A DNA stretch of 64,000 nucleotides from Spirochaetia bacterium. GTDB taxonomy: Bacteria > Spirochaetota > Spirochaetia > SZUA-6 > Bin103. Numbering within the stretch: position 1 is the first letter of the stretch; each line of letters begins with the position of its first letter. Below are positions 14,979 to 54,082 of the stretch, piece after piece. A model generated the notes under the pieces. That model searched no databases and was not told the origin of the DNA. It worked only from the letters and a program-made list of their open reading frames with translations. The translations under genes and the position numbers were made by a program. The DNA lies in the NCBI GenBank assembly GCA_965208575.1, contig CBDBOV010000005.1, positions 832,001-896,000 on the forward strand, in the 5' to 3' direction.

Positions 14979-15054
14979 GCCGACTCTGTTTGGCCGCCTG
15001 CATTAGGGCAAGAGAGTAGGCAGGGAACGGCAATTCACTTCGCGATACTCTCGA
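14979..15054 (+). ncRNA. Candidate structured 5' leader motif, copy A
   Basis: GCCG-A-CTCTGTTT pairs with AGGCAGGG-AA-CGGC; GAGAGTA (15012-18) pairs with TACTCTC (15046-52); homologous to leaders at 31348 and 53996. Confidence 0.45.
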
Positions 15055-15082
15055 CAACGAAAGCGAGGTTACGAGATACCTG

Positions 15083-16969
15083 ATGAAACGAGTGTCAATA
15101 CTATTTGTGCTGTTGCTGCTGTTCTCGGCGGCAGCCGCGAGCGCGGACAATTACATGGAGTCGCCATCGCTGACGGCGAGAGTGAGCTCCGGTGACCTGC
15201 CTCCGGTGGAAGACCGGCTCCCGGCTCAACCCGTGGTGTTCGACGCTTCCTGGAACGACGTGCCGACGGAAGACCTGGACTTCCAGGTGGGCAAGTACGG
15301 CGGCACCCTGCGAGCCGTGCGCACCCACCCGAACTGGGATGCGGACGTGTGGGCCATGTTGAAGGAGACCCTGGTTGCGTCACCCGGCTGGATGGACGCC
15401 AATCCGAAGGACCTGCGCGGCAACGTGATCCTGGACTACGAGGTTTCCGCGGATGGCACCACCTTCACCTTCACCATGCGGGAAGGGCTGAAGTGGTCGG
15501 ACGGTGTTCCCGTTACCACCGAGGACGTGCGCTTCACCTACGAAGACGTGCACATGAACGACGAGTTGGGGGAATTCGGCTGGGACATCCTGCAACAGTG
15601 GATGAGGACCAGGAACCAACCCGACGGCGAGCCGATGCTGGTTGAGGTGATCGACGACTACACCTTCCAGGTGAGCTTTCCGGAGTCCTATCCCGGCTTC
15701 ATCAACAGCCTGGCGGTGTTCTGGGGCACCTACCGCGACTTCCTGAAGCCGAAGCATCACCTGATGAACTTCCACGCCGAGTATGCCTCCGCGGACAAGC
15801 TGGAGGACGCGCTCGCCGAGGCCGGGTTGGAAGAAGGCGAATGGTACAAGCTGTTTCTCCAGGAGGACCACAATACCTGGGAGAAGACCAACACCACCGC
15901 CGACGGTTTCCCGAGCCTGTGTCCGTGGATCATTGCCGACGTGACGCCGACGGTAACGCTGTGGGAACGCAACCCGTACTACTTCAAGGTCGACTCGGAT
16001 GGGCAACAGCTCCCCTACATCGACCGGGTGCGGTCGGAGTACGTCACCGACCGGGAGACCATCAACCTGAAGATCGTGGCCGGCGAACTGGACATAGTCG
16101 AACGCGAGGCGGGCGGACCCAACCTGCCGTTCTTCAAGGAGAACGAGGAGCGCGGCGGCTACAACGTGACCCTGCTGCAGCAGCACTTCGCCCCGGTCGA
16201 CATCTACCTGAACATGACCCACGCGGACCCGGTGTGGCGCGGGCTCGCGCAGGACCTGCGTTTTCGGCAGGCGTTGAACATGGCGATCAACCGCCAGGAC
16301 ATCATCGACAAGGTGTTCTACGGGTTCGCCTCACTGCCCGAGGTGGTGCCGAGCGCATACGACCCGGCGCGCGCGAATGCGCTCCTCGATGAAATCGGCT
16401 TGACGGCGCGCGACTCGGACGGCAACCGGTTGGGTCCGGACGGCAACCCGCTCATGATACCGATCGAGTGGGCGCCGGAGTCGCCGGACTTCCAGCCGGT
16501 GGTCGAGTTGCTGACCCGGGACTGGACGGAACTGGACCTCGACGTGACGCCGAAAGAGCTGCAGCAGGACCTGCTCCATGAGCGGGAGCGGTCGAACGAG
16601 ATCAAGATCAGCCTGAACTGGGACGACCTGGAGAAGTGGTGGCTGTTCGCCACCATCTGGGGCTCGCCGAGATTCGCCACCCATTCGTGGCACCTGTGGT
16701 ACACGAGCGGCGGCGAATCGGGGGAGCAGGGCCCCGACTGGGTGTACGAGTTCTTCGACCAGATCGCCGAGGTGCGGTCGTCTTCCTACGAGGACGCGCA
16801 GCGGCTGGTGAAGGGCGCGCAACAGATCATGTACGACAACATCCTCTACATCCCGACCGTGCAGAAGCTCAGGAAGCCGCTCCTGACTTCCGTCAACCTG
16901 GGCAACGTGCCGACCAGCGGCATGGTCCTGGTGGGCGTGAACAGCGGCGAGCAACTCTTCTTCAAGTAG
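15083..16969 (+). CDS. ABC transporter family-5 substrate-binding protein
   Basis: Signal peptide, LPPVEDRLP, GKYGGTL, REGLKWSDGVP, RNPYYFKVD..GQQLPYID, DLRFRQAL..AINR. Confidence 0.93.
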   Translation: MKRVSILFVLLLLFSAAAASADNYMESPSLTARVSSGDLPPVEDRLPAQPVVFDASWNDVPTEDLDFQVGKYGGTLRAVRTHPNWDADVWAMLKETLVASPGWMDANPKDLRGNVILDYEVSADGTTFTFTMREGLKWSDGVPVTTEDVRFTYEDVHMNDELGEFGWDILQQWMRTRNQPDGEPMLVEVIDDYTFQVSFPESYPGFINSLAVFWGTYRDFLKPKHHLMNFHAEYASADKLEDALAEAGLEEGEWYKLFLQEDHNTWEKTNTTADGFPSLCPWIIADVTPTVTLWERNPYYFKVDSDGQQLPYIDRVRSEYVTDRETINLKIVAGELDIVEREAGGPNLPFFKENEERGGYNVTLLQQHFAPVDIYLNMTHADPVWRGLAQDLRFRQALNMAINRQDIIDKVFYGFASLPEVVPSAYDPARANALLDEIGLTARDSDGNRLGPDGNPLMIPIEWAPESPDFQPVVELLTRDWTELDLDVTPKELQQDLLHERERSNEIKISLNWDDLEKWWLFATIWGSPRFATHSWHLWYTSGGESGEQGPDWVYEFFDQIAEVRSSSYEDAQRLVKGAQQIMYDNILYIPTVQKLRKPLLTSVNLGNVPTSGMVLVGVNSGEQLFFK

Positions 16970-16994
16970 CCGGAGTTCGGCTACTCGTGAACGC

Positions 16995-17025
16995 GTGGCG
17001 CCGGGGCCGGGAGCCTCGGCGCCAC
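16995..17025 (+). other. Intercistronic stem-loop between SBP and permease
   Basis: GTGGCGCCGGGGC-CGGGA-GCCTCGGCGCCAC; no U-tract. Confidence 0.6.
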
Positions 17026-17050
17026 CACCGCGGCAACACGGTAACGGAGC

Positions 17051-18049
17051 GTGGTAGGGTATATATTCGGCCGTATCCTTCAGGTCGTACCGCTGTTGAT
17101 TGCCCTGTCCATCGTCAGCTTTCTGATCATCGAGCTGCCGCCCGGCGACTACCTGACCTCCCTCATCCTGCGCCTGGAGCAGTCCGGCAAGCAACTCAAC
17201 GACGAAGAGGTGCTGCGCCTGAAGAAACAGTACGGCCTGGACCGGTCTGCCGCCGTCCGCTACTCGATGTGGATGTGGAACATCCTCAGCGAGGGGGATT
17301 TTGGCCGTTCCTTTACGTGGCAAAGACCGGTGGCCGAGGTGATCACCGAGCGCATCGTGCTGACCATGGTGATATCGATAGCCACCCTGCTGTTCACCTG
17401 GGTGGTGGCGGTGCCGGCGGGCATCTACTCGGCGGTGCGGCAGTACTCTCCGTTCGACTACGCTGCCACGTTCTTCGGCTTCATCGGGCTGTCGATCCCG
17501 AACTTCCTGCTGGCGCTGATCCTGATGTGGCTGGCGTTCAATTATCTCGACGTGGCGGTCACGGGACTGTTCTCGCCCGAGTACGCGGATTCCGACTGGA
17601 GCCTGGCCAAGGTCGGCAACATGCTCAGCCACATCTGGGTGCCGATTCTGGTCATAGGCACCGCCGGGACGGCGGGGATCATCCGGGTCATGCGGGGCTG
17701 CCTGCTGGATGAACTGCGCAAGCAGTACGTTATCACGTCGCGAGCGAAGGGGTTGGCAGAGGCCAGGCTGCTGTTCAAGTACCCGGTGCGGGTCGCGGTC
17801 AATCCGCTGATCAGCACCATCGGCTGGCTGTTGCCGGCGATCATCTCCGGCGAGACGATCACCGCGATCGTCCTGAATCTCCCGACCTCCGGGCCGATGC
17901 TGTTCCAGGCGCTGCTGGCGCAGGACACCTACCTGGCGGCGAGCTTCGTGCTGATCCTGGCATTCCTGACCATCATCGGTACCTTGATCTCGGACCTTAT
18001 GCTGGCCTGGCTGGATCCGAGAATCAGGTACGAGGGTGTTTCCCGGTGA
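17051..18049 (+). CDS. DppB/OppB-type ABC permease
   Basis: ELPPGDY, GDFGRSF, EAA-like LLDELRKQYVITSRAKGL, LDPRIRY. Confidence 0.93.
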   Translation: MVGYIFGRILQVVPLLIALSIVSFLIIELPPGDYLTSLILRLEQSGKQLNDEEVLRLKKQYGLDRSAAVRYSMWMWNILSEGDFGRSFTWQRPVAEVITERIVLTMVISIATLLFTWVVAVPAGIYSAVRQYSPFDYAATFFGFIGLSIPNFLLALILMWLAFNYLDVAVTGLFSPEYADSDWSLAKVGNMLSHIWVPILVIGTAGTAGIIRVMRGCLLDELRKQYVITSRAKGLAEARLLFKYPVRVAVNPLISTIGWLLPAIISGETITAIVLNLPTSGPMLFQALLAQDTYLAASFVLILAFLTIIGTLISDLMLAWLDPRIRYEGVSR

Positions 18050-19158: not shown

Positions 19159-19163
19159 GATCG

Positions 19164-20741
19164 ATGACGATAATTCGGAGGAACAACTTGACGGTGGAAA
19201 ATGACGGCACGTCCAGGCAGATCGAGAGATTGGCGCGCCTGATTCCGAAGGCGAGAGAGCTGCGCGAGCAGTACCAGGAGGATCCGCACCGGCCGGCGTA
19301 CCATTTCGTCGCCCCGGAAGGCATCTGCCACCCGTTCGATCCGCAGGGGTGCATCTACTGGAAGGGCAGGTACCACATGTTCTACGCCTACCAGGTGGAG
19401 GAGGTGGGCGTGTGGGCGCACGCCTCCAGTGCCGACCTGGTGCACTGGATCCATCATCCGATACCGTTGGGGGTGTCGCCGGGAGACCCGGAGGAACAGG
19501 TGTACGCCGGCGGCTCGCTGATCGACAAGGATGGCGTGCCCACCATGATCTACCACGGGGTGAACGCCGGCACCTGCATTGCCACGAGCACCGACGATGG
19601 CTTGATCCATTGGACAAAGCACCCCGCAAATCCGGTCATCCCCAAGCCGAAGGAGGGTGAAGTGGGCCACGGCACGTACCACGTGTGGGACACCTGCGGC
19701 TGGCTGCACGGGGATACCTACTACTCCATCTGCGGGAACCACCCGTTCGAGCCGCCCAAGTCGGACGGCGACGCAGCCTACCTGTTTCGCTCCGACGACC
19801 TGGTCAACTGGGAGTACGTGCACCCATTCTACCGGTCCGACCGGCGCTGGACGGAGGAGTACGAAGACTGCTCCTGCCCCGACTTCTTTCCGATCGGCGA
19901 CAAGTACATGCTCATGTTCATCAGCCATACCCACGGCACCCAGTACTACCTCGGCAGCTACGACGGCGAGCGCTTCGTGCCCGAGCGCCATGCCCGGATG
20001 AGCTGGGCGGGCGGGCCGTTGTTCGCGCAGGAAAGCCTGCTCGATGGCGACGGCAGGCGCATCGTCTGGGCATGGGTGTTCGAGTCCCGGTCGCGGAACG
20101 CGCAACTGGCCTCCGGCTGGGCCGGGGTGATGAGCCTCCCCCGGGTGCTGTCTCTGGGCCGGGATGACACGCTGCTCATCGAACCTGCCGAGGAATTGCA
20201 GATGCTCCGGCGGAATTACCGCCGGCGGGAGGGTCTGGGCCTGGCAGAGGGATTGGAAGTGAGATTGGAGGGGATCGACGGGGACTGCCTGGAGCTCGCC
20301 CTCGACGTGGATGATCCGTCCGGTCGGAAGTTCGGCGTGATGGTGCGTTGTGCTCCGGATGGCGAAGAGCAGACCCGGATTTTGTTCGACGACGAGACAC
20401 GGACCCTGCAGGTGGACACGTCGCGTTCCAGCCTGAGCCCGGAGATCGTGCAGCCGTGGCCGCAGCACGGCACCTCGTTCTCGCCCAATCCGCTGGACGG
20501 GAGGGAAGACGTCCGGATCCAGAAGGCGCCCTTCGAGTTGGCGCCGGGCGAGCCGCTCAGACTGCGGATTTTCCTGGATCGCTCCATCCTGGAGGTGTTC
20601 GCCAACAGCCGGCAATGCGTGACGCAGCGGATCTACCCGACGCGAGGCGACAGCATGGGAGTGCGGCTGTTCAGCGAGAAGGGGCGTGTTTCGGTACGGT
20701 CCATCGAGGCCTGGGACATGGCCGCGGCCAACCCCTGGTAG
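19164..20741 (+). CDS. GH32 family glycoside hydrolase with non-canonical catalytic motifs
   Basis: HRPAYHF, PFDPQG, WAHASSADLVHW, CSCPDFF, GWAGVMSLPR, C-terminal LRIFLDRSILEVF. Confidence 0.85.
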   Translation: MTIIRRNNLTVENDGTSRQIERLARLIPKARELREQYQEDPHRPAYHFVAPEGICHPFDPQGCIYWKGRYHMFYAYQVEEVGVWAHASSADLVHWIHHPIPLGVSPGDPEEQVYAGGSLIDKDGVPTMIYHGVNAGTCIATSTDDGLIHWTKHPANPVIPKPKEGEVGHGTYHVWDTCGWLHGDTYYSICGNHPFEPPKSDGDAAYLFRSDDLVNWEYVHPFYRSDRRWTEEYEDCSCPDFFPIGDKYMLMFISHTHGTQYYLGSYDGERFVPERHARMSWAGGPLFAQESLLDGDGRRIVWAWVFESRSRNAQLASGWAGVMSLPRVLSLGRDDTLLIEPAEELQMLRRNYRRREGLGLAEGLEVRLEGIDGDCLELALDVDDPSGRKFGVMVRCAPDGEEQTRILFDDETRTLQVDTSRSSLSPEIVQPWPQHGTSFSPNPLDGREDVRIQKAPFELAPGEPLRLRIFLDRSILEVFANSRQCVTQRIYPTRGDSMGVRLFSEKGRVSVRSIEAWDMAAANPW

Positions 20742-20765
20742 GCGCGGCATCGGGAGAGCAATGCA

Positions 20766-22280
20766 ATGGAAGCACCCCGGTACTACGATCGGCGAGACAT
20801 GGCGCCGTGTTCGACGCTGCATTTCCGCCCGGAAGGGGCGCTGGTGGGGGATGCGTCGTTCTTCCGGGACGGCGACGAGTGTCACATCTTCTACCTGAGC
20901 AAGCGCAGCGACGATCCGCCGCGGCTGCCGACCTGCCAGCTCGATCACGCGGTCAGCAAGGACCTGCTGCACTGGGAGCGGCTGCCCACGGCGCTGTTTC
21001 CGGGCAAGCCGGGGGAGCCCGACGACGACGGCATCGGCGGCTGCACCATCGTCCATCGGGACGGCAGGTATCACATGTTCTACGCCGGAACCAACCCCCA
21101 GGTCACCTATCACGCGGAGAGCCGTGACCTGATCGAGTGGCGCAAGGATGCCCCGCTGGAACCGGTGATCGTGCCCGATCCGCGCTGGTACATGGCGCAC
21201 GACGCGGCGGTAGAGGATCCGTACAACGAGCGCGGCTGGCGGGATCCGTTTCTGTTTGTCGACGACAAGCGCGGGCGCTACGTGATGACGGTGACGGCAC
21301 GGCGCAACCGGGGACCGTGGCGGGAGCGGGGCTGCGTTGCCTGGGTGGTCAGCGCGGACCTCACCGGCTGGGAGGTGCAGCCGCCTCTCTACGCTCCTTC
21401 GCTGGGGATGAACCTGGAGGTTACCGAGCTGTTCGAGATGGATGGCCGCTACTACCTGATTTTCTGTCATGGCGAGACCAACACGACGCGCTACCGGGTG
21501 GCGGATCGCGTGGAGGGTCCGTACCGGTGTCCGGTGGATGACGTGCTGCTGCCGAATTACATGTACGCGCCGCGGACGATTGAACGGCACGGGAAGCGCT
21601 ACCTGATCCCCTGGGTGGCGGACCGCCTGAACGGCAGCGACGACAACCGGTCGGAGTTCGGCGCCGAAGGCGTTACCTGGGGCGGCGCGCTGGGAACCCC
21701 GCAGGAGATGCGCTGCCTCCCGGACGGCAGGCTTGCGCTGTTCTACCCGGACATCGTGGCAGGACTGTCAGGTGCGCAGACGGTAGGTGCAGGCAGCCTC
21801 GACCATCTGCAGGCCGAGCGGGGCGAGTGGCAGCGGCATGGAGAGACCGTACTGGCGTCGTGCGAGGAGGGAATGGCGCGCGGACTGGTGGCCGCGCGCG
21901 GACAGGACTTCCTGCTCTCGTGCGGTATCAAGGTGAGCCGCGGCGTGGCCGCGGGACTGATCCTGCGCGCCGGTGAAGGGGGAGAGGCCGGCTACTACCT
22001 GCGCCTGGAACCGGCACTGAAGAACGTCTCCTTGTGGAGGTATCCGCGGCCCTGGTTCTTTTCCCGGCCACTGGCGTTCCGGGTAGTGCCCGATCTGGAC
22101 TACGGGCAAACGAGAGAGGTGAAGGTAATCCTGCACCGGCACGTGCTCGACGTATACCTGGATGACCGCCACGTCCTGAGCCGCGCCGTGTACGATTACC
22201 GGGATGGGCAATTCGGATTGTTCGTGGAAGACGCCGCGGCAGAGTTCGGACCTCTTGCTGCGAATACACTCAAGGAGTGA
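20766..22280 (+). CDS. GH32-like five-bladed beta-propeller hydrolase
   Basis: VGD, HAVSKDLLHWE, WRDPF, LEV motifs; C-terminal beta-sandwich. Confidence 0.75.
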   Translation: MEAPRYYDRRDMAPCSTLHFRPEGALVGDASFFRDGDECHIFYLSKRSDDPPRLPTCQLDHAVSKDLLHWERLPTALFPGKPGEPDDDGIGGCTIVHRDGRYHMFYAGTNPQVTYHAESRDLIEWRKDAPLEPVIVPDPRWYMAHDAAVEDPYNERGWRDPFLFVDDKRGRYVMTVTARRNRGPWRERGCVAWVVSADLTGWEVQPPLYAPSLGMNLEVTELFEMDGRYYLIFCHGETNTTRYRVADRVEGPYRCPVDDVLLPNYMYAPRTIERHGKRYLIPWVADRLNGSDDNRSEFGAEGVTWGGALGTPQEMRCLPDGRLALFYPDIVAGLSGAQTVGAGSLDHLQAERGEWQRHGETVLASCEEGMARGLVAARGQDFLLSCGIKVSRGVAAGLILRAGEGGEAGYYLRLEPALKNVSLWRYPRPWFFSRPLAFRVVPDLDYGQTREVKVILHRHVLDVYLDDRHVLSRAVYDYRDGQFGLFVEDAAAEFGPLAANTLKE

Positions 22281-22382
22281 TGAACTTGGGTAAGGCGCAC
22301 CAGGGAACGGGTAGTGCGTCAGTTTACTTCGGGGAGATGGTTGACTACCTTCGGGCGTCGTCTGAACTCTGCCATGCCCCTG

Positions 22383-23616: not shown

Positions 23617-23722
23617 CCGCTCACGCGCTTGACGGTTGGCGGGCGTGTGATAAGGTGACTTCTTCCAACGAGCACGGGCAGCGGGATCCAGTCCCGAACC
23701 CGAGAACAAGGAGGAGTACGTT

Positions 23723-25531
23723 ATGACTCCGAGACTCATGTTGCTGACGCTGGCGTTCGCGCTGGCGGCTACCGTTGCGTTCGCCGCCGCCGACAGCGAG
23801 GAGGCGGCCGCTACCGAGAAGGAGATGGTGCTCGACCCCACCACCGGGGAGATGATCACCGCGCCCGAGTATGGCGGCACCATCACCTACGGGCGCACCG
23901 GCACCGGCGAGCACTGCGATGCCTGGGCCAACAGCGGCTGGTCGCATCACTTCGTCGGCGTGGTCACCGAGCAGCTCACCATCGCGGACTGGGGGATCGA
24001 CCGCAGCGTGAACGACCTGCGGCTCTTTTCCTATCCGTTATCCGTCATGAAGGGGCAGTTGGCCGAGCGTTGGGAAGCGCCGGATGCGACCACCTTCATC
24101 TTTCACATCCGCTCCGGCGTTCACTGGCACGACAAGGCGCCGATGAACGGTCGCGAACTGACCGCCGGCGACGTCGAGTTCAACTATCACCGCATCCTGG
24201 GGCTCGGCAGTGGCTTCACCGAAGCCTCGCCGCACGCCGGCCAATACCCCAAGATGGAATCGGTGACGGCCACCGACGCATCGACGGTGGTGTTCAAGCT
24301 GGCGGAGCCGGACCACGTCTCGCCCCTGAAGCCGGTTCCGCAATACGGCGGCGGATTCGGGCTGTTCAACATGTGGATTGCCTGGATCTACCCGCCGGAG
24401 GTGATCCAGGAGCACGGCGACATCCAGGACTGCACGAACCTGGTCGGCACCGGGCCGATGGAACTGACCGACCTGGTGGAAGGCAGCTCCGTGACCTGGA
24501 CCAGGAACCCCAACTACTGGGGGTTCGACGAGAAGTTCCCGGACAACCGCCTGCCCTACGCCGACGAGATCGTCACCCTGATCATGCCGGATCCGGCGGC
24601 GCGAATCGCGGCCCTGCGCTCGGGGCAAGTCGACATGTTGTGCAACTGCGGCGACAGCCAGTTGCGGTCGATCGACCAGGTCGACAGCCTGCAGAAGACC
24701 GATCCCCACATCCGGATGTGGGAGCGCCCCGGTCGATCCGACAACGCATTCCGGTTCATTACCGTGGGCCGGCCGCCGTTCAACGACATCCGGGTGCGCC
24801 AGGCCCTGCAGATGGCGATAGATCGGGAGACGATCGCCAACACCTACTTCAAGGGGTTTGCGGACCCCACGCCGCACGGACTTTTGCACAACGACGGCCC
24901 CTACGGGACGCCGTTCGACGAGTGGCCGGAGGAGATCGCGCAGTACTACCGCTACGATCCGGAGCGCGCCCGGCAGCTCCTGGCCGAGGCGGGCTATCCC
25001 GACGGTTTCAAGACCGAACTGAAGTACTTCGAACGCTATGACGCGAACTACGCGGAGCTGGTCATCGGCTACTGGGCTGAGATCGGCGTCGACGTCGAGA
25101 TGAGCATCCATGGCGCCGCGGAGGTTCTGGCGATCGCCCGCGAGCACACCTCGGACGGAATTGCACACGGCGAAAACTCCAACCCGACCTCGGATGTTTC
25201 AAACCTGGAGTCGTTCTACCGCTCCAATTCCCCCTACGGCTTGAACAACGATGGATTGGGCGTCAACGATCCGCACATGGACGAGCTGATCGACGCCGCC
25301 AAGGCGGCTAACACGATGGAGGACATCGTTCGGCTCACCAAGGAGGCGAATCTGTACGCGCTGGGCCAGCACTGGCACATCGACGGTCCCGGTCCGGTCC
25401 CGCAGTTCAACGTCGCCCAGCCATGGATCAAGAGCTACAACGGCGAGGTGTCGATCGGCGTTGGGCAATTCACCACGATCCTGACCCGTCTGTGGATCGA
25501 CCAGGATCTGAAGCGGGAGATGGGTTTCTGA
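23723..25531 (+). CDS. ABC transporter family-5 substrate-binding protein
   Basis: Signal peptide, KEMVLDPTTG..APEYGGT, GVHWHDKAPMNGRELTA, PFNDIRVRQALQMAID; upstream TTGACG-17-TAAGGT and AGGAGG. Confidence 0.93.
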   Translation: MTPRLMLLTLAFALAATVAFAAADSEEAAATEKEMVLDPTTGEMITAPEYGGTITYGRTGTGEHCDAWANSGWSHHFVGVVTEQLTIADWGIDRSVNDLRLFSYPLSVMKGQLAERWEAPDATTFIFHIRSGVHWHDKAPMNGRELTAGDVEFNYHRILGLGSGFTEASPHAGQYPKMESVTATDASTVVFKLAEPDHVSPLKPVPQYGGGFGLFNMWIAWIYPPEVIQEHGDIQDCTNLVGTGPMELTDLVEGSSVTWTRNPNYWGFDEKFPDNRLPYADEIVTLIMPDPAARIAALRSGQVDMLCNCGDSQLRSIDQVDSLQKTDPHIRMWERPGRSDNAFRFITVGRPPFNDIRVRQALQMAIDRETIANTYFKGFADPTPHGLLHNDGPYGTPFDEWPEEIAQYYRYDPERARQLLAEAGYPDGFKTELKYFERYDANYAELVIGYWAEIGVDVEMSIHGAAEVLAIAREHTSDGIAHGENSNPTSDVSNLESFYRSNSPYGLNNDGLGVNDPHMDELIDAAKAANTMEDIVRLTKEANLYALGQHWHIDGPGPVPQFNVAQPWIKSYNGEVSIGVGQFTTILTRLWIDQDLKREMGF

Positions 25532-31319: not shown

Positions 31320-31347
31320 GGAGCGCTCAGGGATCCGGAACTTGGTG

Positions 31348-31424
31348 TGCCGCCCTCACCGACCGAGAGGCGCTCGTGACGCGAGCGCGGCGAGGGGCCG
31401 GCAAGTGGAATCGGTGCTCTCGAA
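31348..31424 (+). ncRNA. Candidate structured 5' leader motif, copy B
   Basis: TGCCG-CCCTCACC pairs with GGCGAGGG-GC-CGGCA; CGCGAGCGC (31380-88) pairs with GTGCTCTCG (31414-22). Confidence 0.45.
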
Positions 31425-31445: not shown

Positions 31446-33290
31446 TTGATGAGATTTTCAGGAAAGGCATTCGCACTTGTGCTGGTCGTCGGCCTGGCCG
31501 CAACCGGCCTGTGGGCCGCCGGCGAAGAAGAGCAGCCGGCAGCCGCCGCCGACAAGAAGTACGTGACCGACCCGGTCACCGGCACGGTGTACTCCGCGCC
31601 GGAGTATGGCGGCACACTCATCTACGTATTCAGAAGCACGGTTGAGCCTCGTGACCCCTGGTTTGGTAGTGGAGCCGGTCAAATCATGAGTGCCCCGCTG
31701 GAGAAACTGGGCACGGTGGACTGGGCCATAGACAGGGACATGTTTCATTTCGTCGGCGGCTATGCGCCGCCGCTGTCCGCCCTTACCGGGGCGCTGGCGG
31801 AGAGCTGGGAACAGCCCGACGCCACCACCTATGTCTTCCACATCCGCCAGGGCGTCCACTGGCATGACAAGCCGCCAATGAACGGGCGGGAACTCACTGC
31901 CGAAGATGTCGAGTTCAACTTTCACCGCATGTTGGGCAACAAACTGACCGGGACCCGGTTCAGCGAAGCCGAACCTTCCCCGGCGGCAGGAGCCCTCGGA
32001 ACCTTGCCCTGGGAATCGGTAACGGCCACCGACGATGGGACGGTAGTCATGAAGCTCACGGAGCCAAGACTGCGTGCCGAACAGCATATGTTGGACCAGA
32101 GATATGTGTTCATACAGCCACCCGAGGTAATCGAGCAACACGGGGACATGCAGGATTGGAGGAATATCGTCGGTACCGGGCCCTTCATGCTGACCGACTT
32201 TGTCCCGGACAGCTCCCTGACCTTCACCAAGAATCCCAACTACTGGGGCTTCGACGAGAAGTACCCGGACAACCGCTTGCCCTACGTTGACGAGCTGAAG
32301 GCGCTGTATATGGAGGAATATGCAACCATCATGGCGGCACTGCGCTCGGGTCAGGCCGACTGCGCATGTTGGCAGGGCAACTCCCAAATAGCGACCGTAG
32401 ACCAGGCAGAGAGCCTCATGCGGACCAACCCGGAGCTGGTGGTGATCCCGTTTTTCCAGCGGGCGAATCATGGCACCAAGATCAACACGGCCAAGCCACC
32501 CTTTGACGACATCCGGGTGCGCCGGGCGATGCAGATGGCACTCGACCTTGAGACCATCAACGCTACCTACTTCAAGGGTTTTGCGGATACGACACCCATG
32601 GGGCTGGTGAACAGAGATTTCTGTGCCACGGGGTACTGCGTCCCGTTCGAAGACTGGCCCGAAGAGATCAAGCAATACTACCGGTATGACCCGGAAGGGG
32701 CCGAGAAGCTGCTCGATGAGGCTGGGCTTCCCCGTGGCACGGACGGCACCAGATTCGAAACCACCTATCTGACCATCTCGAGTCACGATGTGAGCTGGCC
32801 GGAATTATTGGGCGGATACTGGGGCGCCGTTGGCATCAAGCTCAATATTCAGCCAATCCCCATTGGTGAACTGATCCCCCGATTGACAGCGGCACGCCCG
32901 GTCCGCGCTGGCGGGGGTATTGGTGACTGGGACATGTGGGTAGGTTCTACCGGCGCCAAGGGTGAGCCGTGGCAGCAGATGTCCATGTCTTACGGCGGTT
33001 CTACCGGGTGGCACCAGATACCACAGCACGACGCGCAATATGACGCCCTGTATGACGAAATGGTAGCCGCTGCCACCGTGGCGGCGCAGACCAGGCCGAT
33101 CAGAGAGATGGACATGCGCCACCTGGAGCAGCACTGGATGATCTGGGGGCCCGAGGCTCCGCAGTTTGCCGTGCATCAGCCGTGGCTGATGGGCTATGGC
33201 GGCGAAGGCGCCTTCGGATCGCAACAGTACTTGAATGTATGGGCCCGTCTCTGGGTCGACAGCCAGCTCAAGGCAGAAATGAATCGATAG
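31446..33290 (+). CDS. ABC transporter family-5 substrate-binding protein
   Basis: Signal peptide, YVTDPVTG..APEYGGT, GVHWHDKPPMNGRE, PFDDIRVRRAMQMALD. Confidence 0.93.
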   Translation: MMRFSGKAFALVLVVGLAATGLWAAGEEEQPAAAADKKYVTDPVTGTVYSAPEYGGTLIYVFRSTVEPRDPWFGSGAGQIMSAPLEKLGTVDWAIDRDMFHFVGGYAPPLSALTGALAESWEQPDATTYVFHIRQGVHWHDKPPMNGRELTAEDVEFNFHRMLGNKLTGTRFSEAEPSPAAGALGTLPWESVTATDDGTVVMKLTEPRLRAEQHMLDQRYVFIQPPEVIEQHGDMQDWRNIVGTGPFMLTDFVPDSSLTFTKNPNYWGFDEKYPDNRLPYVDELKALYMEEYATIMAALRSGQADCACWQGNSQIATVDQAESLMRTNPELVVIPFFQRANHGTKINTAKPPFDDIRVRRAMQMALDLETINATYFKGFADTTPMGLVNRDFCATGYCVPFEDWPEEIKQYYRYDPEGAEKLLDEAGLPRGTDGTRFETTYLTISSHDVSWPELLGGYWGAVGIKLNIQPIPIGELIPRLTAARPVRAGGGIGDWDMWVGSTGAKGEPWQQMSMSYGGSTGWHQIPQHDAQYDALYDEMVAAATVAAQTRPIREMDMRHLEQHWMIWGPEAPQFAVHQPWLMGYGGEGAFGSQQYLNVWARLWVDSQLKAEMNR

Positions 33291-46397: not shown

Positions 46398-46407
46398 CTA
46401 ACGGCAC

Positions 46408-48895: not shown

Positions 48896-49038
48896 GGCAT
48901 GATTATACCGTATTTAGCGTTGTTAACGGCACCTGATAAATCCGGTAACTTCGGCATAGAGTCGCTCAGGGCTGTCGTTCCGGATCGCACGCGGGACGGG
49001 GGCCGCCGCGCTATGCGCGCGTGGGGAGGATCGGTAGG

Positions 49039-49896: not shown

Positions 49897-50078
49897 CGGC
49901 GCGTGCAGACGCTGCCCAACTTCGGGCCGCACATGGTCCACACCCTGTTCATTCGAGGATCGAGCCATAGCTGCGGCCTCCGCCCCCGCGCGGGGCAGGC
50001 CGCGTGCCGCGACTCGAGCCCGATGTACGCCGCTTCGGCGCCGGCACGCCCGGCTCGTTTGGCAATGCCACGAGGGTC

Positions 50079-51065
50079 GTGAGTTTCGACCTGCTCACCC
50101 CCTACGTGACCGCGCAGGCGGTCGAATCGGTCATCGCCACGCCGGTGGACGGCGCGCTGACCGGCTATCCCAGCTACGTCAACCGCGTGTACGGATTCGG
50201 CGCCGAGGATGGCCGCCAGTACGTGGCGAAGTTCTACCGGCCCGAGCGCTGGTCGTGGCGGGCGATCGAGGAGGAGCACCGCCTGGTGGCCGCCTGCGCG
50301 GCCGAGGAGCTGCCGGTGGTGGCGCCGCTGGCGGATGACGACGGCGAGACCCTGCACACGGTGACCGCGGCGGACGGTGAGGCCGAGCAGGAGTTCCTGT
50401 TTGCCGTCTACCCCAAGCGCGGCGGGCGCAACTTCGACGCCGACCGCGACCAGGACTGGCTGCGGATCGGCGCGCTGGTGGGGCGGCTGCACGCCGTCAT
50501 GGCAGGGAGCGCGGCCCGCCACCGGCTGACCTGCACGCCGCGGGCCGCAACCGCGCGCTTCATCGAAGAGCTGTCGCGCGCGCATGTCGTGGCGCCCGAT
50601 GCCGCCGACGAGTTCTTTGAGGTGGCGGGCCGCGCCGTCGACCGGATCGCGCCGTTGTTCGAGGGCGCGGCTCTGCAGCCGGTGCACGGCGACTGCCACC
50701 GCGGCAACATCCTGGACCGTGCCGCCGGCGGCCTGCTGCTGATCGACTTCGACGACCTGATGGTGGCCCCGGCGGTGCAGGACCTGTGGCTGCTGCTGCC
50801 GGGGAGGGTGGCGGACAGCCGGCGCGAGCTGGAACTGCTGCTGGAAGGCTACGAGCAGTTCCGTCCGTTCGACCGCCGCAGTGTGCGTCTGATCGAGCCT
50901 CTGCGCGTGATGCGGATGATCTACTACCTGGCCTGGTCCGCCCTGCAGCGCCGCGACCCGGGCTTCCGGCAGGCGTTTCCACGGTGGGGCGGAGCGGCGT
51001 TCTGGGCCCAGGAAGTCGAGGACCTGCGCACCCAACTGTCCGTCATCGAATCCGAACTCGCCTGA
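50079..51065 (+). CDS. SrkA/RdoA-like Ser/Thr protein kinase
   Basis: SYVNRVY, AKFYRPERWS, HGDCHRGNIL, IDFDD, PAVQDLW, DPGF..AFP. Confidence 0.88.
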   Translation: MSFDLLTPYVTAQAVESVIATPVDGALTGYPSYVNRVYGFGAEDGRQYVAKFYRPERWSWRAIEEEHRLVAACAAEELPVVAPLADDDGETLHTVTAADGEAEQEFLFAVYPKRGGRNFDADRDQDWLRIGALVGRLHAVMAGSAARHRLTCTPRAATARFIEELSRAHVVAPDAADEFFEVAGRAVDRIAPLFEGAALQPVHGDCHRGNILDRAAGGLLLIDFDDLMVAPAVQDLWLLLPGRVADSRRELELLLEGYEQFRPFDRRSVRLIEPLRVMRMIYYLAWSALQRRDPGFRQAFPRWGGAAFWAQEVEDLRTQLSVIESELA

Positions 51066-51156
51066 CCCGTCCCCGCGCCGTGCGCTTCTGAGCGGGCCGC
51101 TTGTCTGGCATGATGGCGGAGCCGGACACCGGTTGGACCGGATGGAGGATGAGCCG

Positions 51157-51589
51157 ATGCGAGGAGTGGTGCCGCTGGGCGGGGAACGGGTCGAGGTGTG
51201 CGAGCTGCCGGACCCGCGGCCGGGGCCGGGCGAAGCGGTGGTGGCGCTGCGCAACGCCGGCATTTGCGGCAGTGACCTGCACACGGCGCACAACAGTTGG
51301 GAGGAGATCGGCGAGCGGCAGAACCTGGTGATCGGCCACGAGGCGAGTGGCGTGGTTGCGTGGTGGGGGAGGGCGTGTCCCCGGCGCTGGTCGGCACGCG
51401 GGTGTCGGTGTATCACTACCGCGGCCGATCGGCCCCGGCATCCACGTCTACTACTTCGGCATCATGTCGATGCGCTGGGAGAACATCATGGCCGCCGCCG
51501 TGATCGTCACGCTGCCGGTGATCCTGCTGTACATGCTGCTGCAGCGCTACGTGGTCAGCGGCCTCACCGGCGGCGCGGTGCGCGGATAG
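51157..51589 (+). pseudogene. Chimeric relic: Zn-dependent dehydrogenase N-terminus fused to a carbohydrate ABC permease C-terminus
   Basis: [16 protein letters not shown], frameshift, RVSVYHYRG; then [37 protein letters not shown]. Confidence 0.8.
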
Positions 51590-51616
51590 CGAGACTAGCA
51601 GTTAGGGCGCCGCTCT

Positions 51617-52021
51617 CTACAGGATCTTGATGTTGACGAGATGGTGCAGGCCGGCGTCGGATGGGTTGCGCGTGTACAACGGAAGGGCATTTGCGAGGGC
51701 GGTAGCGGCGATCAACAGATCGGCGGTGCGGCGACGTCCCGAACGACCGCTCGCCCGTAGTGCCGCGTATATGCGCCCGTACGCACGCGCGGATCTTGCG
51801 TCGAACGGCAGCGGATCCCAGTGCGTGGCGGCCCAGTGCAGGCGGTCTTGGCGCCGGGCGCGCTCCGCTTCGTCGCTCGTGGCGTGGGGACCAGCAGCCA
51901 GTTCCGCGAGAGTGACGGCGGAGATCGCGGTTTCGTCGGGCAGACGCACACCATCGATCACGTCATGATCGATCACGACGGACGTATCCAACAGGCCGCG
52001 CGCGACGGTCGACTCAGTCAT
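51617..52021 (-). CDS. VapC/PIN-domain toxin
   Basis: LLDTSVVI, ISAVTLAEL, DLLIAATA, LYTRN..D. Confidence 0.9.
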   Translation of the reverse strand: MTESTVARGLLDTSVVIDHDVIDGVRLPDETAISAVTLAELAAGPHATSDEAERARRQDRLHWAATHWDPLPFDARSARAYGRIYAALRASGRSGRRRTADLLIAATALANALPLYTRNPSDAGLHHLVNIKIL

Positions 52022-52271
52022 CGCCGTCCGTATCGATGTACGCATCGACGGAAGCATCGAGGTCGGCCCGGAAGCGCGCGGCGTCGATGCGCGGCGCGCC
52101 GCGCGCAGCCTCGACAATGACTGCGCGGGGTACGAATCTGCGCTGCGCCACGGGCCTCAATTCGGCGACTGGCGAGCCGTTCCTGGTAATGATCAGGCTC
52201 TGACCGGCCTGCACGTCGCGCAGGACGGCGGCGGACTCGTTGCGGAGCTGGCGCTGCGTGATGCTACGCAT
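52014..52271 (-). CDS. Phd/YefM family antitoxin
   Basis: ITQRQLRN, ITRNGSPVAELRP; upstream GCTACA repeats may be the operator. Confidence 0.88.
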   Translation of the reverse strand: MRSITQRQLRNESAAVLRDVQAGQSLIITRNGSPVAELRPVAQRRFVPRAVIVEAARGAPRIDAARFRADLDASVDAYIDTDGDD

Positions 52272-52408
52272 GAGCTAAGGTAGCAATTGTAGCGCAATGT
52301 AGCAACCATGCCGGCTCGACAAGATCGGTTCAGCGGCGGGCGTCTGGGCGCGTGACCCTGCTGACGACGCCGGCCCCGCTTGGACGGCTCCGGCCGGCGC
52401 GTCCGCCC

Positions 52409-53614
52409 TCAGCCGTCCGCCACCTCGAACGCCGTCACGTTGCGCGTCTCGCGGCTGAACTCCACCCCGATCAGGTGAATCGGCTCGCCCCGGCCCCGGT
52501 ACTTGTCCGCGTACCCGCGTTCCCGCAACTGCGCCAGCGCCGACCCCGGCGGCGCCATCTCCACGACCTTGAACTCGAACAGGTACACGTGGCCGCCGGT
52601 GCGCACCGCCATGTCCAGCCGCCCGTGGCTGCTCGACTCCTCCACCACGATCTCGTACCCCAGCGCCGCGAAGTAGGAGTAGACCACGCTCGCGTAGAAG
52701 CCCTCGTACTCCGCGATGGCGTTATTTGTGTACCACTGGTACGGAATGCTCGCGAAGAAGGCGTGGAACAGACCCTTCAGCGCCGCGCAGTCGTGCGCCT
52801 CCAACAGCCGCGCGAGACGCATGCTGTTGGCCGTCTGCCGCTCCGCGTCCTGCACCAGATGGCGCAGCAGATGCTCGTTCAGGCGCTGGCGTACCTCTCG
52901 GTTCGGATAGCCCAGCCGGTACAGCGCCTTGCCGCCCAACTCTTCCTCCGCCGCGATGGTCAGGTAGCCGGTCTGGAACAGCAGCGCTCCGGTGCCGATA
53001 TTGCCCACGTCGAACGCCGACAGCAGCTACTCCGTGCCCATCACCTGGTCCAGGGACACCGACGCGATCCGGCGTTCGAACAGCGTGTCCACCAGAAACG
53101 CCGGCGTCCCGGTTTCGAACCAGTGCGCCTTGAACTCGCGGCTGTCGAACAGCAACAGCACGTCGTACGGGTTGTACACCTTCTCCGCGCCGCGCCACCG
53201 GTAGCCGTTATACCACTCGCGAATCTGCCCGCGATCCAGCCCGGCAAGCTCCGGCGCAAACACGGTGTCCAGGTCGTCCTCCGTGTACCCGCAGATCCCT
53301 GAATAGCGCCGATCCAGCGTAATGTCCTTGAGGTTGTTCAAGTCGGAAAACAGACTCACCTTGGAGAACTTGCTTACCCCCGTCACGAACGTGAACCTCA
53401 CGTGCGCGTCACGCGCCTTGATCACCCCGTACAGGCCGCGCAGGTAGTCGCGGTTGGCCCGCGCAATCTCCGGCGTCTCCAGCGCATCCAGGATCGGCTT
53501 GTCGTACTCGTCCAGCAGCCGCGCGATGTAGGGCGTCTTGTCCACGTAGTAACAGTCCTCCTCGCGCACCTCGCGGAAGGTCTGCATGCCGATGGGCAGT
53601 CTGCGCCGGGTCAC
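52409..53614 (-). pseudogene. AAA-ATPase-like + PD-(D/E)XK nuclease gene with Walker A deletion and in-frame amber stop
   Basis: LPIGMQTF, YYVDKT, then directly DEYDKP (RPRRFGKS region absent); TAG at 53027-29 in frame; C-terminal GRLD...FEFK...LAQL..RGYA.KY. Confidence 0.88.
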
Positions 53615-53995
53615 GCCCCATCTTACCGCGTCGCCCGACGGATTCAAGCGTGTTGACATGATTTCCGTTTTGTGCGGTGATGGAGAAGAGAGCACGGTGA
53701 ACATTATGTTTCCACCCGTCCACCCGTCCAATCACGATAGCTCTAGCGTAGAACCCAGAAACACCGACCGACCCCACGTTGTGCGCCTCGTCCGGCCCAT
53801 ACCCGGGATCGGCGCACCTGCTTTCCGACCTGCGTCAATCCACTCATCAACTCCTGTCGCCGGTGTCCGCCGCCGGCCTTTCCCGTCAATCACATTCGCT
53901 GCGTTGACGACCACCGCCGCACGCGGCGTTCCGGGATCGGGTGCGCGCACGCGTTCAAGGAGGTGCCGTTTGTAGGATGCGGAACTGATCCGGAG

Positions 53996-54082
53996 CAGTC
54001 GCCTCGCTTTCTGGTCACCTGCGACTGCAGGTACACCTCGAGAGTAGGCGAGGGGCCCGGCTGTGAACTCGGTACTCTCGAA
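53996..54082 (+). ncRNA. Candidate structured 5' leader motif, copy C
   Basis: CAGTCG-CCTCGCTT pairs with AGGCGAGG-GGCC-CGGCTG; TCGAGAGTA (54038-46) pairs with TACTCTCGA (54073-81); TAGGAT -10 box at 53973. Confidence 0.45.

What the first reader, a model, noticed from the sequence alone, without database searches (positions are those of the whole stretch)
14979..54082. Candidate new cis-regulatory RNA: covarying pseudoknot/switch leader in front of three SBP genes
Seen: the leaders of SBPs 15083, 31446 and 54100 share the order P1a - variable hairpin(s) - P2a - P1b - short linker - P2b - RBS region. P1: GCCG.CTCTGTTT/AGGCAGGG..CGGC (A), TGCCGCCCTCACC/GGCGAGGG..CGGCA (B), CAGTCGCCTCGCTT/AGGCGAGG....CGGCTG (C). 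P2: GAGAGTA/TACTCTC (A), CGCGAGCGC/GTGCTCTCG (B), TCGAGAGTA/TACTCTCGA (C). Pairing is kept while sequence changes, and P2a lies in the P1 loop, giving an H-type pseudoknot or two alternative folds. The core GGC(G)AGGG-N2-4-CGGC and the ending CTCTCGA are conserved. B and C begin with GATCCGGA just after a -10 box. SBP A belongs to a different subfamily from B and C, so simple recent duplication does not explain it. I could not match it by eye to a known riboswitch. Inference: a riboswitch or protein-bound leader controlling an expanded uptake regulon.
Basis: partly seen in the sequence, partly recalled or inferred. Interest (0 to 1): 0.75.

Follow-up and report, generated by a model that had tools for sequence, protein, structure and literature searches.

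The report
Pseudoknotted leader RNA before transporter genes
A previously uncatalogued folded RNA leader sits in front of about 80 nutrient-binding-protein genes in this sponge-associated spirochaete and its close relatives, and probably tunes how much of these proteins is made, although what it responds to is unknown.

Summary
The three window leaders (14975-15055, 31345-31424, 53994-54082) share the order P1a, variable hairpin, P2a, P1b, linker, P2b, SD. They are the window's only three matches to a model of the family. The own genome holds about 80 copies: 82 nhmmer loci, 75 model matches. Of 78 downstream ORFs, 77 are SBP_bac_5-like. The proteins are only 47% identical at the median.

Both helices are kept by compensatory changes: 79-87% of cells pair, against 32-49% when partners are slid, with 0/500 shuffles reaching the score. 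No Rfam family matches.

The motif was found in 7 of 10 congeneric genomes and none of about 175 others searched.

Against: single-sequence folding energies are ordinary, the transcription start is unknown, and copies are related by duplication and recombination, because orthologues carry different leader types.

Best reading: a new cis-acting pseudoknot leader acting on translation or mRNA stability. A metabolite riboswitch is not supported.

This scan noted an analogous leader, not this one, in another lineage.

The parts
14975..15055 (+). Leader A (type Ib), whole motif. P1a 14979-14991, inner hairpin 14996-15009, P2a 15012-15018, P1b 15018-15031, P2b 15046-15052.
   Evidence: Model R1 hit, 62.6 bits, E 2.4e-11. 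Sequence. Constrained folds. An orthologue in another species (86% protein identity) keeps the same leader.
14878..15006 (+). Upstream ORF of leader A (42 codons plus stop). It contains the ILKEP core of the family's short upstream ORF and runs into P1a and the inner hairpin.
   Evidence: Translation. Family upstream ORF seen.
15083..16969 (+). SBP A (SBP_bac_5, 628 aa). First gene of an operon with two permeases and two GH32 glycosidases.
   Evidence: Pfam.
31345..31424 (+). Leader B (type II), whole motif. P1a 31348-31360, inner hairpin 31370-31386 (its 3' arm is P2a), P2a 31380-31388, P1b 31389-31403, P2b 31414-31422.
   Evidence: Model R1 28.5 bits. Model R2 55 bits at G000:C5:863345-863424. 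Folds.
31446..33290 (+). SBP B (SBP_bac_5, 614 aa), followed by two permease genes.
   Evidence: Pfam.
53957..53988 (+). Upstream perfect Shine-Dalgarno (AAGGAGGTG, 53957-53965) with a tiny ORF: TTG-TAG at 53970-53975, or ATG plus 2 codons plus TGA at 53977-53988. It lies 5' of leader C.
   Evidence: Sequence. The same module occurs in sister copies (1-3-codon ORFs).
53994..54082 (+). Leader C (type II), whole motif. P1a 53996-54009, inner hairpin 54017-54032, P2a 54038-54046, P1b 54046-54063, P2b 54073-54081. The SD is at 54087-54091.
   Evidence: Model R1 36.4 bits. Model R2 86 bits. Constrained folds. An RNA-library contig covers 53876-54028.
54100..55911 (+). SBP C (SBP_bac_5, 603 aa). Permease genes at 57419-59269.
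   Evidence: Pfam. CDS covered by contigs of 4 RNA-library runs from 3 studies.
23617..25531 (+). Control: fourth SBP_bac_5 gene (23723-25531), with a short leader that lacks the motif.
   Evidence: No model hit.

Best explanation
It is a genuine, lineage-specific, cis-acting structured mRNA leader.

Architecture (shown by comparative evidence):
- A long helix P1 encloses a variable hairpin and the 5' strand of a second helix, P2.
- The 3' strand of P2 lies downstream of P1. The two helices therefore form an H-type pseudoknot, or at least two topologically linked helices.
- The motif ends 10-35 nt before the Shine-Dalgarno sequence of the first gene (the binding protein) of ABC-uptake operons.

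Mechanism (inferred):
- It acts after transcription on the binding-protein cistron.
- The two purine strands (GAGAG in P2a, GGGAG or GAGGG in P1b) look like ribosome-binding sites. The two pyrimidine strands (P1a; CUCUC in P2b) look like anti-SD sequences.
- My preferred mechanism is a translational gate. The folded pseudoknot keeps the CUCUC strand locked, so the real SD is free. Unfolding lets CUCUC, or a local start-codon hairpin, reduce initiation.
- The unfolding trigger could be ribosome traffic from the perfect-SD mini-ORF that precedes most copies, temperature or Mg2+, or a trans-acting factor on the purine strand.

My odds:
- Real conserved RNA structure: about 0.85.
- Acts in cis on translation and/or stability: about 0.7.
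- This particular gate: about 0.35.

The trigger is unknown. The whole 5' unit behaves as an exchangeable cassette.
For: Copy number and position:
- 82 loci and 75 model matches in the own genome.
- 78 of 82 loci are followed, in the same orientation, by an ORF of at least 150 aa that starts 0-88 nt after the motif.
- 77 of those 78 ORFs are homologous to Pfam-confirmed SBPs.

Constraint:
- The proteins are 47% identical at the median.
- Mean pairwise identity is 0.75-0.79 in P2 and 0.71 in P1b. It is 0.40 in DNA further upstream and 0.31-0.70 at third codon positions.

Covariation:
- A2 (74 own-genome copies): 78.6% of cells paired against 33-49% when slid. Covariation score 0.216 against 0.099 or less. 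0/500 shuffles reach it.
- A2 with the alternative P1 register plus P3: 85.9% against 32-46%.
- A3 (54 distinct copies from seven other genomes plus the window): 83.5% against 36-48%. P2 was not part of the search model, yet 92.4% of its cells pair.
- A4 (44 type II copies, plain MAFFT alignment): inner P1 94.4%, P2 87.3%, slid 41-48%.
- At least six different double substitutions in P2 were seen by eye.

Strand specificity: G.U cells outnumber A.C cells 203:111, 151:70 and 71:23.

No intrinsic terminator is found, so any control is not by termination.

Hints of a gate:
- The P2b-SD duplex is better than shuffles (-5.2 against -3.3 kcal/mol, mean z -1.09; 15 of 75 leaders have at most 5 of 100 shuffles as good).
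- The SD pairs mainly with P2b in 18 of 75 predicted ensembles and with P1a in 11 of 75.
- The start codon is paired in a local hairpin in 21 of 54 type I leaders, against 6.5 expected.
- In leaders A and C, the nested states holding P1 or P2 are close in energy: -22.1 against -25.0 and -35.0 against -34.5 kcal/mol.
- In the B subgroup, P2a has a second, upstream partner.

An SD plus mini-ORF upstream was found in 49 of 80 copies by a strict pattern.
Against: - MFE z-scores of the three window motifs are ordinary (-1.25, +0.21, -1.97; the control scores -1.47).
- P1a is no more complementary to the SD than shuffles are (z 0.03).
- The P2a-P2b duplex (about -10 to -15 kcal/mol) is much stronger than P2b-SD (-5.2). 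Simple competition would therefore rarely close the SD.
- In 21 of 75 predicted ensembles the SD is free anyway.
- B lacks the upstream mini-ORF, and the strict pattern missed it in 31 of 80 copies.
- All copies come from one genus and are related by duplication and recombination. Cell counts therefore overstate independent events. Loops and linkers of the dominant type are also nearly identical, which fits concerted evolution as well as it fits function.
- The transcription start is unknown. The RNA data are assembled contigs that cannot show ends, levels or regulation.
- 106 of 183 SBP loci do without this leader.
Confidence: 0.45

Rival explanations
1. Constitutive expression cassette rather than a switch. 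The 5' hairpins, the upstream perfect SD with its tiny ORF (a STAB-SD-like ribosome parking site) and the pseudoknot protect the 5' part of the operon mRNA from RNases and keep the real SD accessible. The binding protein is thereby made in large excess over the permeases. No signal is sensed.
For: - The perfect SD (AGGAGGTG-like) lies 60-170 nt upstream of the real start in at least 49 of 80 copies, often with only 1-3 codons behind it.
- STAB-SD is described as a far-upstream SD that stabilises cry3Aa mRNA (passages read in PMC12970973).
- The leader always precedes the first cistron, the binding protein.
- No ligand-pocket-like conserved junction is seen.
- The three leader types are exchanged between orthologues as if they were interchangeable.
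- An AI note of this scan reports an analogous multi-copy SBP leader with an upstream SD look-alike in another phylum. That is a lead, not support.
Against: - The four-segment alternative pairings in the B subgroup, and the near-isoenergetic P1 and P2 states, look like a switch.
- Many copies pair the start codon, which is odd for a pure enhancer.
- 106 of 183 SBP loci lack the cassette.
- Stability could not be tested.
Confidence: 0.3
2. A metabolite-binding riboswitch. The pseudoknot forms a pocket for a global signal molecule and co-regulates about 80 uptake operons.
For: - The pseudoknot topology lies next to an SD, as in SAM-II or preQ1-II type switches (recalled, not from a call).
- Both helices covary.
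- Association with one gene class is strict.
- There is no Rfam match, so it would be a new class.
Against: - The nearly invariant columns are in helices.
- Junctions and the P1b-to-P2b linker differ between types: a hairpin in type I, an unrelated 10-12-nt stretch in type II.
- The variable region ranges from 0 to about 45 nt.
- The operons served have unrelated cargo.
- The SD is not part of either helix.
- About 80-100 matches per genome is far above known classes (recalled).
Confidence: 0.12
3. No RNA-level function. The similarity is kept by repeated duplication and gene conversion of the 5' ends of a huge paralogous family, and the apparent helices are inherited.
For: - Orthologues (83-98% protein identity) have the orthologous leader as best match in only 6 of 21 pairs.
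- In three pairs, homology starts only 40-55 nt inside the CDS.
- Protein identity within a leader type (0.48) equals that between types (0.47).
- Loops are as conserved as stems in the dominant type.
Against: - Conversion copies whole units and cannot create matched double substitutions. Yet P1 and P2 stay complementary across three very different sequence types and several subtypes.
- G.U cells outnumber A.C cells.
- Third codon positions of the adjacent signal-peptide region are less conserved than first and second positions (0.62-0.65 against 0.74-0.81). That stretch therefore shows protein-level selection, not blanket homogenisation.
- The position relative to the SD is fixed.
Confidence: 0.1
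4. A DNA-level element: an operator or promoter array for a transcription factor, or a mobile repeat of the REP or MITE type.
For: - The dominant type starts with a TTGAC-like hexamer.
- There are many near-identical copies.
Against: - All 82 copies lie in one orientation relative to the gene. None was found elsewhere or inverted.
- Pairing tolerates G.U but not A.C.
- Compensatory changes keep RNA helices with arms 30-80 nt apart.
- No sigma-70-like site was found by consensus scan.
Confidence: 0.05

Closest known systems
H-type pseudoknot translational riboswitches (SAM-II, SAM-V, preQ1-II); features recalled, family membership tested through Rfam
   Same: A compact pseudoknot in the 5' UTR lies immediately upstream of a ribosome-binding site. 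There is no terminator, so any control would act on translation.
   Different: - No Rfam model matches, even at E<=10 or E<=1.
- The SD lies outside both helices.
- No conserved junction core.
- A large variable insert.
- Gene context is transporter binding proteins of mixed cargo.
- 75-100 matches per genome.
STAB-SD 5' mRNA stabiliser of Bacillus thuringiensis cry3Aa (Agaisse & Lereclus 1996, as cited in PMC12970973; passages read)
   Same: A strong SD far upstream of the real start, in a long leader of a highly expressed gene. It is proposed to bind 30S subunits and block RNases.
   Different: - Here the SD is usually followed by a start codon and a 1-11-codon ORF.
- It is only one module of a cassette whose conserved core is a pseudoknot.
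- No stability data exist.
Upstream RBS and upstream-ORF control in bacteria, by translational coupling or ribosomal occlusion (Sinorhizobium meliloti study, PMC13285730; abstract read)
   Same: Short upstream ORFs with their own SD in mRNA leaders can change translation of the main ORF.
   Different: The upstream ORFs here end 6-70 nt before the pseudoknot and 90-170 nt before the main start. They are too far away for direct occlusion of the main RBS.
Trans-acting sRNA control of binding-protein mRNAs (GcvB in enterobacteria, AbcR1/2 in Rhizobiales; recalled, not from a call)
   Same: Post-transcriptional co-regulation of many ABC-transporter binding-protein mRNAs at or near their ribosome-binding sites.
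   Different: Those are trans sRNAs that pair with unstructured target sites. Here the conserved element is a cis structure, and no antisense copy of the motif was found in the genome.
Multi-copy structured SBP leader of another uncultured lineage, noted earlier by this scan (e1-1063009; AI note, unchecked)
   Same: An uncatalogued structured leader with an upstream SD look-alike, placed before more than 100 genes, mostly ABC binding proteins.
   Different: - Another phylum.
- A different sequence: a look-up by sequence found no look-alike of this motif.
- I did not test that note.

Membership tests
Any Rfam 15 family | Score at or above the family's gathering threshold | tested here: not met
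   - 0 matches in the whole window.
- Only chance-level hits (13.4 bits or less, E 0.5 or more) at leaders A and C.
- No leader hit at E<=1 in five further loci of all types. The only hit there is a group II intron fragment outside the leader.
SAM-II / preQ1-II type pseudoknot riboswitch | H-type pseudoknot, both helices conserved | tested here: met
   P1 and P2 interleave and both covary. Whether both form at the same time cannot be tested with these tools.
SAM-II / preQ1-II type pseudoknot riboswitch | The SD (or start) is part of a ligand-stabilised helix | tested here: not met
   The SD lies 10-35 nt 3' of P2b in the copies inspected.
Riboswitch (generic) | Conserved unpaired nucleotides forming a ligand pocket, shared by all members | tested here: not met
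   The nearly invariant columns of A2 and A4 lie in P1b, P2a and P2b. Junctions differ between types.
Riboswitch (generic) | Direct ligand binding | not testable with these tools
   Needs in-line probing or ITC.
Leader-peptide transcription attenuator | Upstream ORF followed by a terminator and anti-terminator | tested here: not met
   An upstream ORF is present in many copies, but no terminator-like site is found near A, B or C.
STAB-SD-like stabiliser | Strong SD far upstream of the start in the leader | tested here: met
   An SD of the AGGAGG, GGAGG or GGGGGT kind, followed 3-12 nt later by a start codon, was found upstream in 49 of 80 copies by a strict pattern. In C it lies at 53957-53965.
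STAB-SD-like stabiliser | The SD prolongs mRNA half-life | not testable with these tools
   No raw-read or half-life data. Only contigs were available.
CsrA-controlled leader | A CsrA protein is encoded | tested here: not met
   PF02599 was not found in the own genome (95% complete). The controls respond.
Mobile intergenic repeat (REP or MITE type) | Copies in both orientations and in varied contexts | tested here: not met
   All 82 loci point towards a downstream gene. 78 have an ORF of at least 150 aa, and 77 of those are SBP-like.

The most novel reading that the evidence does not exclude
The leaders are plug-in regulatory cassettes made of an SD-led mini-ORF, a pseudoknot and the first 14-18 codons of the signal peptide. 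Recombination within the conserved signal-peptide coding region shuffles them among more than 80 uptake operons. A symbiont population could thereby re-wire which transporters obey which post-transcriptional programme. The pseudoknot would be the sensor or gate of a single global signal, and this would be the largest cis-RNA regulon in one genome.
Probability: 0.2. Interest if true: 0.8.

Novelty: new variant of a known kind. Interest (0 to 1): 0.6.

Why it matters
If it is functional, one small RNA fold governs the first cistron of roughly 80-100 nutrient-uptake operons per genome in an uncultured sponge symbiont. That is many more copies than the known cis-regulatory RNA classes reach in one genome (recalled). 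It gives RNA-motif hunters a new pseudoknot family with natural disrupt-and-restore variants. It also shows regulatory 5' cassettes being exchanged between orthologous genes. It could explain how a dissolved-organic-matter scavenger co-ordinates or tunes a transporter arsenal that takes up about 5% of its genome (183 loci of about 1.8 kb).

Tried and rejected
1. Rfam at gathering and permissive thresholds: nothing.

2. Thermodynamic distinctiveness: not distinctive.

3. Sigma-70 promoter and terminator scans near A, B and C: none. This includes the TTGACA / TAAGGT pair before B that looked good by eye.

4. P1a as an anti-SD: no better than shuffles.

5. CsrA as the trans factor: the gene was not found.

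6. RNA evidence:
- Only Logan contigs were available.
- They cover the SBP C CDS in 4 of 4 runs laid (3 studies).
- One 154-nt contig spans 53876-54028.
- They show no transcript ends, levels or strand. The gap over 54029-54186 is no finding.

7. Wider distribution:
- R1 found nothing in 13 genomes of the sister genus or in 17 genomes of other families of the order.
- R2 found nothing in 146 genomes of 86 other genera of the class.
- SBP relatives at about 50% identity occur in other sponge MAGs: two unclassified low-GC MAGs, and records labelled Dehalococcoidia and Acidobacteriota. None of their loci gave an R1 match. The two unclassified MAGs show other repeated leaders by eye.

8. A first attempt to place P1a by duplex folding was swamped by GC-rich alternatives, so I replaced it with alignment columns.

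9. Literature: no description of this motif was found. Supplementary files were not consulted.

10. Look-ups in this scan's notes by sequence and by words: nothing for this motif.

Full report
WHAT IS IN THE WINDOW

The window lies at G000:C5:832001-896000.

- Each leader precedes a gene that Pfam calls SBP_bac_5: 15083-16969, 31446-33290 and 54100-55911.
- Each such gene is the first of an ABC-uptake operon with two permease genes. Operon A also carries two GH32 glycosidases, so the cargo is not uniform.
- A fourth SBP_bac_5 gene (23723-25531) has a short leader without the motif.
- The shared order is P1a, variable hairpin, P2a, P1b, linker, P2b, then the SD 10-35 nt further on. Exact coordinates are in the parts list.
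- B's P2 has 8 of 9 standard pairs. The P2 helices of A and C are perfect.
- No Rfam family matches, at gathering score or at permissive E-values.

THE FAMILY IS MUCH LARGER

A strict pattern found four further copies in the genome. Iterated nhmmer found 82 loci.

- 78 of the 82 are followed in the same orientation by an ORF of at least 150 aa that starts 0-88 nt after the motif. 72 of these ORFs are full length.
- 77 of the 78 hit one of the Pfam-confirmed SBPs by blastp.
- The four loci without an ORF, and a few with short ORFs, look truncated.
- The genome has 183 SBP_bac_5-like loci. 77 carry this leader and 106 do not. Three of those 106 gave a match with the type II model.

I fetched 80 of the 82 loci (L001-L080). 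I then aligned 74 distinct trimmed leaders (alignment A2). Dropped before that alignment were three truncated copies (L016, L038, L059), three exact duplicates (L015, L026, L033), and the 81st and 82nd loci, which I did not fetch.

By eye there are three sequence types:
- Type Ia is dominant. In it, P1 is short and a small hairpin P3 replaces part of the P1b partner.
- Type Ib includes window leader A.
- Type II includes window leaders B and C.

A covariance model of A2 (R1) finds 75 matches in the own genome. It finds exactly three in the window.

IS IT MORE THAN COMMON DESCENT?

- The 72 full-length proteins are 47% identical at the median (range 21-83%).
- SBP A is only 23-26% identical to all the other leader-bearing SBPs.
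- Most members of A's own subfamily lack the leader.
- Mean pairwise identity is 0.75-0.79 in the P2 strands and 0.71 in P1b. It is 0.40 in DNA further upstream and 0.31-0.70 at third codon positions.

STRUCTURE

| Alignment | Cells paired | Slid partners | Other results |
|---|---|---|---|
| A2, with P1, inner hairpin and P2 | 78.6% | 33-49% | Covariation 0.216 against 0.099 or less; 0/500 shuffles; P2 87.3% paired, with changes on both sides in 7 of 8 pairs |
| A2, with type Ia register of P1 plus P3 | 85.9% | 32-46% | |
| A3, cross-species (61 matches, 54 distinct rows, seven other genomes plus the window) | 83.5% | 36-48% | 0/500 shuffles on all five measures; P2 was not in the model, yet 92.4% of its cells pair |
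| A4, type II only (44 sequences, plain MAFFT) | Inner P1 94.4%, outer P1 76.7%, P2 87.3% | 41-48% | |

- A3 is fitted to R1's P1 and inner hairpin, so those two helices lean towards the model.
- A4 holds 21 own copies, 20 cross-species matches and three copies placed by pattern. L116 was left out because about 90 nt are inserted before its P2b.
- G.U cells outnumber A.C cells 203:111, 151:70 and 71:23. This points to the sense-strand RNA.

Caveats:
- Cells are not independent events.
- All sequences are from one genus.
- The three window motifs fold no better than dinucleotide shuffles: z -1.25, +0.21 and -1.97. The motif-less control scores -1.47.
- The case therefore rests on comparison, not energy.

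DISTRIBUTION

- Record titles call the nearest genomes 'MAG: Spirochaetia bacterium'. RNA and other runs that hold the stretch are sponge or marine metagenomes.
- R1 matches 7 of 10 other species of the genus, with 1, 4, 6, 37, 41, 78 and 102 matches. It matches 0 of 13 genomes of the sister genus and 0 of 17 from other families of the order.
- The type II model R2 matches only this genus in a class-wide sample: 3 of 4 congeners plus the own genome, and 0 of 146 genomes from 86 other genera.
- These counts mean 'not found in those searched'.
- The close SBP family follows the same distribution.
- SBP relatives at about 50% identity occur in other sponge MAGs: two unclassified low-GC MAGs, and records labelled Dehalococcoidia and Acidobacteriota. 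None of their loci gave an R1 match. The two unclassified MAGs show other repeated leaders with small upstream ORFs, by eye.

OTHER MODULES OF THE LEADER

- Most dominant-type copies carry, 60-130 nt upstream of P1a, a perfect SD and an 11-codon ORF (MILKEPHARAA-like). By eye, variation is mostly at third codon positions. Its stop lies in the 5' arm of a long GC hairpin.
- Type II copies often have a perfect SD and a 1-3-codon ORF 6-70 nt before P1a. In leader C this module is at 53957-53988.
- In leader A the ORF is extended to 42 codons (14878-15006).
- A strict pattern finds such an upstream SD plus start in 49 of 80 copies. B has none.
- In 21 of 54 type I leaders the start codon is paired in a small local hairpin with the SD in the loop. 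Shuffles predict 6.5. The stems covary by eye.

RECOMBINATION

- Protein identity within a leader type (0.48) equals that between types (0.47).
- I examined 46 cross-species loci. 21 had an own-genome protein at least 75% identical (observed 83-98%). In only 6 of those 21 is the orthologue's leader the best match.
- In five pairs the leader type differs between orthologues.
- For three pairs, nucleotide homology of 87-92% begins only 40-55 nt inside the CDS and is absent upstream. For two others, homology runs through the leader.
- The 5' unit (leader plus the first 14-18 codons) is therefore exchanged by recombination.
- This can explain how the divergent SBP A has a type Ib leader. That association is itself conserved: an 86%-identical orthologue in another species keeps it.
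- This weakens any count of sequences as independent evidence. However, conversion cannot create matched double substitutions.

MECHANISM

Shown:
- The position of the motif relative to the SD and the gene.
- The interleaved P1 and P2 topology.
- The absence of a terminator-like site.

Inferred:
- Post-transcriptional action in cis.
- The purine strands resemble SDs and the pyrimidine strands resemble anti-SDs.

Tests of the gate idea:
- P2b pairs with the real SD somewhat better than shuffles: -5.2 against -3.3 kcal/mol, mean z -1.09, and 15 of 75 leaders have at most 5 of 100 shuffles as good. P1a does not (z 0.03).
- I folded 75 of 77 leaders (two had no start by my heuristic). The SD pairs mainly with P2b in 18, with P1a in 11, with downstream sequence in 14 and with the linker in 9. 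It is mostly free in 21.
- The nested states holding P1 or P2 are close in energy in A and C. They are not close in B: -33.3 against -25.4 kcal/mol.
- In the B subgroup, P2a has a second, upstream partner.

I therefore prefer a translational gate, at about 0.35. The constitutive stabiliser or enhancer reading is a close rival. A small-molecule riboswitch is unlikely, because there is no conserved pocket and the junctions differ between types. CsrA is not encoded.

EXPRESSION DATA

- Contigs of four RNA-library runs from three studies cover the SBP C CDS.
- One contig covers 53876-54028, which includes the upstream SD and the 5' half of the leader.
- Contigs show no ends, strand or level, and DNA carry-over is not excluded.

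LITERATURE

- Four full-text searches found no description of this motif.
- I read the abstract of PMC13285730 and passages of PMC12970973 on STAB-SD.
- Supplementary files were not seen.

EARLIER NOTES OF THIS SCAN (AI notes, unchecked)

- One note describes another leader family in this same genome, with a repeat inside an upstream ORF. I saw such a repeat in passing in L116.
- Another describes an analogous multi-copy SBP leader with an upstream SD look-alike in a different phylum.
- Neither describes this motif.

VERDICT

- It is a new structured leader family of a known general kind.
- Its function and trigger are open.
- Interest 0.6.

Noticed in passing
Own genome, 183 loci (list); window 15083-16969, 23723-25531, 31446-33290, 54100-55911: The genome holds 183 SBP_bac_5-like loci (tblastn, at least 350 aa aligned, E<1e-20). 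At about 1.8 kb each, that is roughly 5% of its 6.5 Mb. They fall into at least three subfamilies: A-like, B/C-like and a fourth-SBP-like group.
   Followed up: partly
L001-L080 (own genome); window 14878-15006 and hairpin about 14926-14968: This is a second conserved module upstream of the pseudoknot in most dominant-type leaders. It has a perfect SD and an 11-codon ORF (MILKEPHARAA-like), with mostly third-position variation by eye. The stop codon lies in the 5' arm of a long GC hairpin. Type II leaders instead have an SD plus a 1-3-codon ORF.
   Followed up: partly
L136, L148, L146 against G000:C4:79328, C6:816403, C3:302052: Orthologous SBP genes of different species are 87-92% identical in nucleotides. 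Homology starts only 40-55 nt inside the CDS, and they carry different leader types. The 5' cassette (leader plus the first 14-18 codons) is swapped by recombination in the signal-peptide region.
   Followed up: partly
Type I leaders, 24 nt before to 12 nt after the start codon (e.g. L004, L025, L028, L045): A small hairpin pairs the start codon with the stretch just 5' of the SD and leaves the SD in the loop. It is present in 21 of 54 type I leaders, against 6.5 expected from shuffles. Different stems keep the pairing.
   Followed up: partly
window 55864-57307 (ORF 56057-57028): Contigs from two RNA-library runs of two studies join 55864 directly to 57307, skipping 1442 nt. The skipped stretch holds a 323-aa ORF with no Pfam family, lying between SBP C and its permease genes. 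It is probably an insertion present in this genome but not in related strains.
   Followed up: no
L025:288-351 (+), that is G000:C4:509113-509176: A sub-threshold Rfam match to group II intron domains D1-D4 (RF02005, 44.2 bits against 49 at gathering, E 2.7e-10). It is cut off by the end of the locus. It lies upstream of one SBP leader, on the opposite strand.
   Followed up: no
window 31363-31388; also L001, L021: In the B subgroup the variable region holds a look-alike of P2b that pairs perfectly with P2a (7 bp in B, 31370-31376 with 31380-31386). P2a therefore has two alternative partners, an attenuator-like chain of complementary segments.
   Followed up: partly
L125-L200 (records OZ242383.1, CBDBHR01...): Unclassified low-GC sponge MAGs carry many SBP paralogs about 50% identical to SBP C. 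Their own repeated leaders contain one to three SD-led small ORFs and repeated modules. This suggests that elaborate multi-copy leaders before this SBP family recur in several lineages.
   Followed up: no
L116 (G005:C1), about 150-190 nt upstream of the SBP start: A short tandem repeat (three to four copies of a unit of about 8 nt, by eye) lies directly in front of P1a in one leader. The same leader also has an insertion of about 90 nt between P1b and P2b. It recalls the repeat-bearing leaders noted earlier in this genome (e1-4371048).
   Followed up: no
window 8614-10287: A 557-aa ORF matches Pfam Transposase_29 (E 5e-69).
   Followed up: no
window 19164-22280: Two GH32 glycoside hydrolase genes follow the permeases of operon A. 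This 'peptide-family' binding protein therefore probably serves a fructan- or sucrose-type sugar.
   Followed up: no
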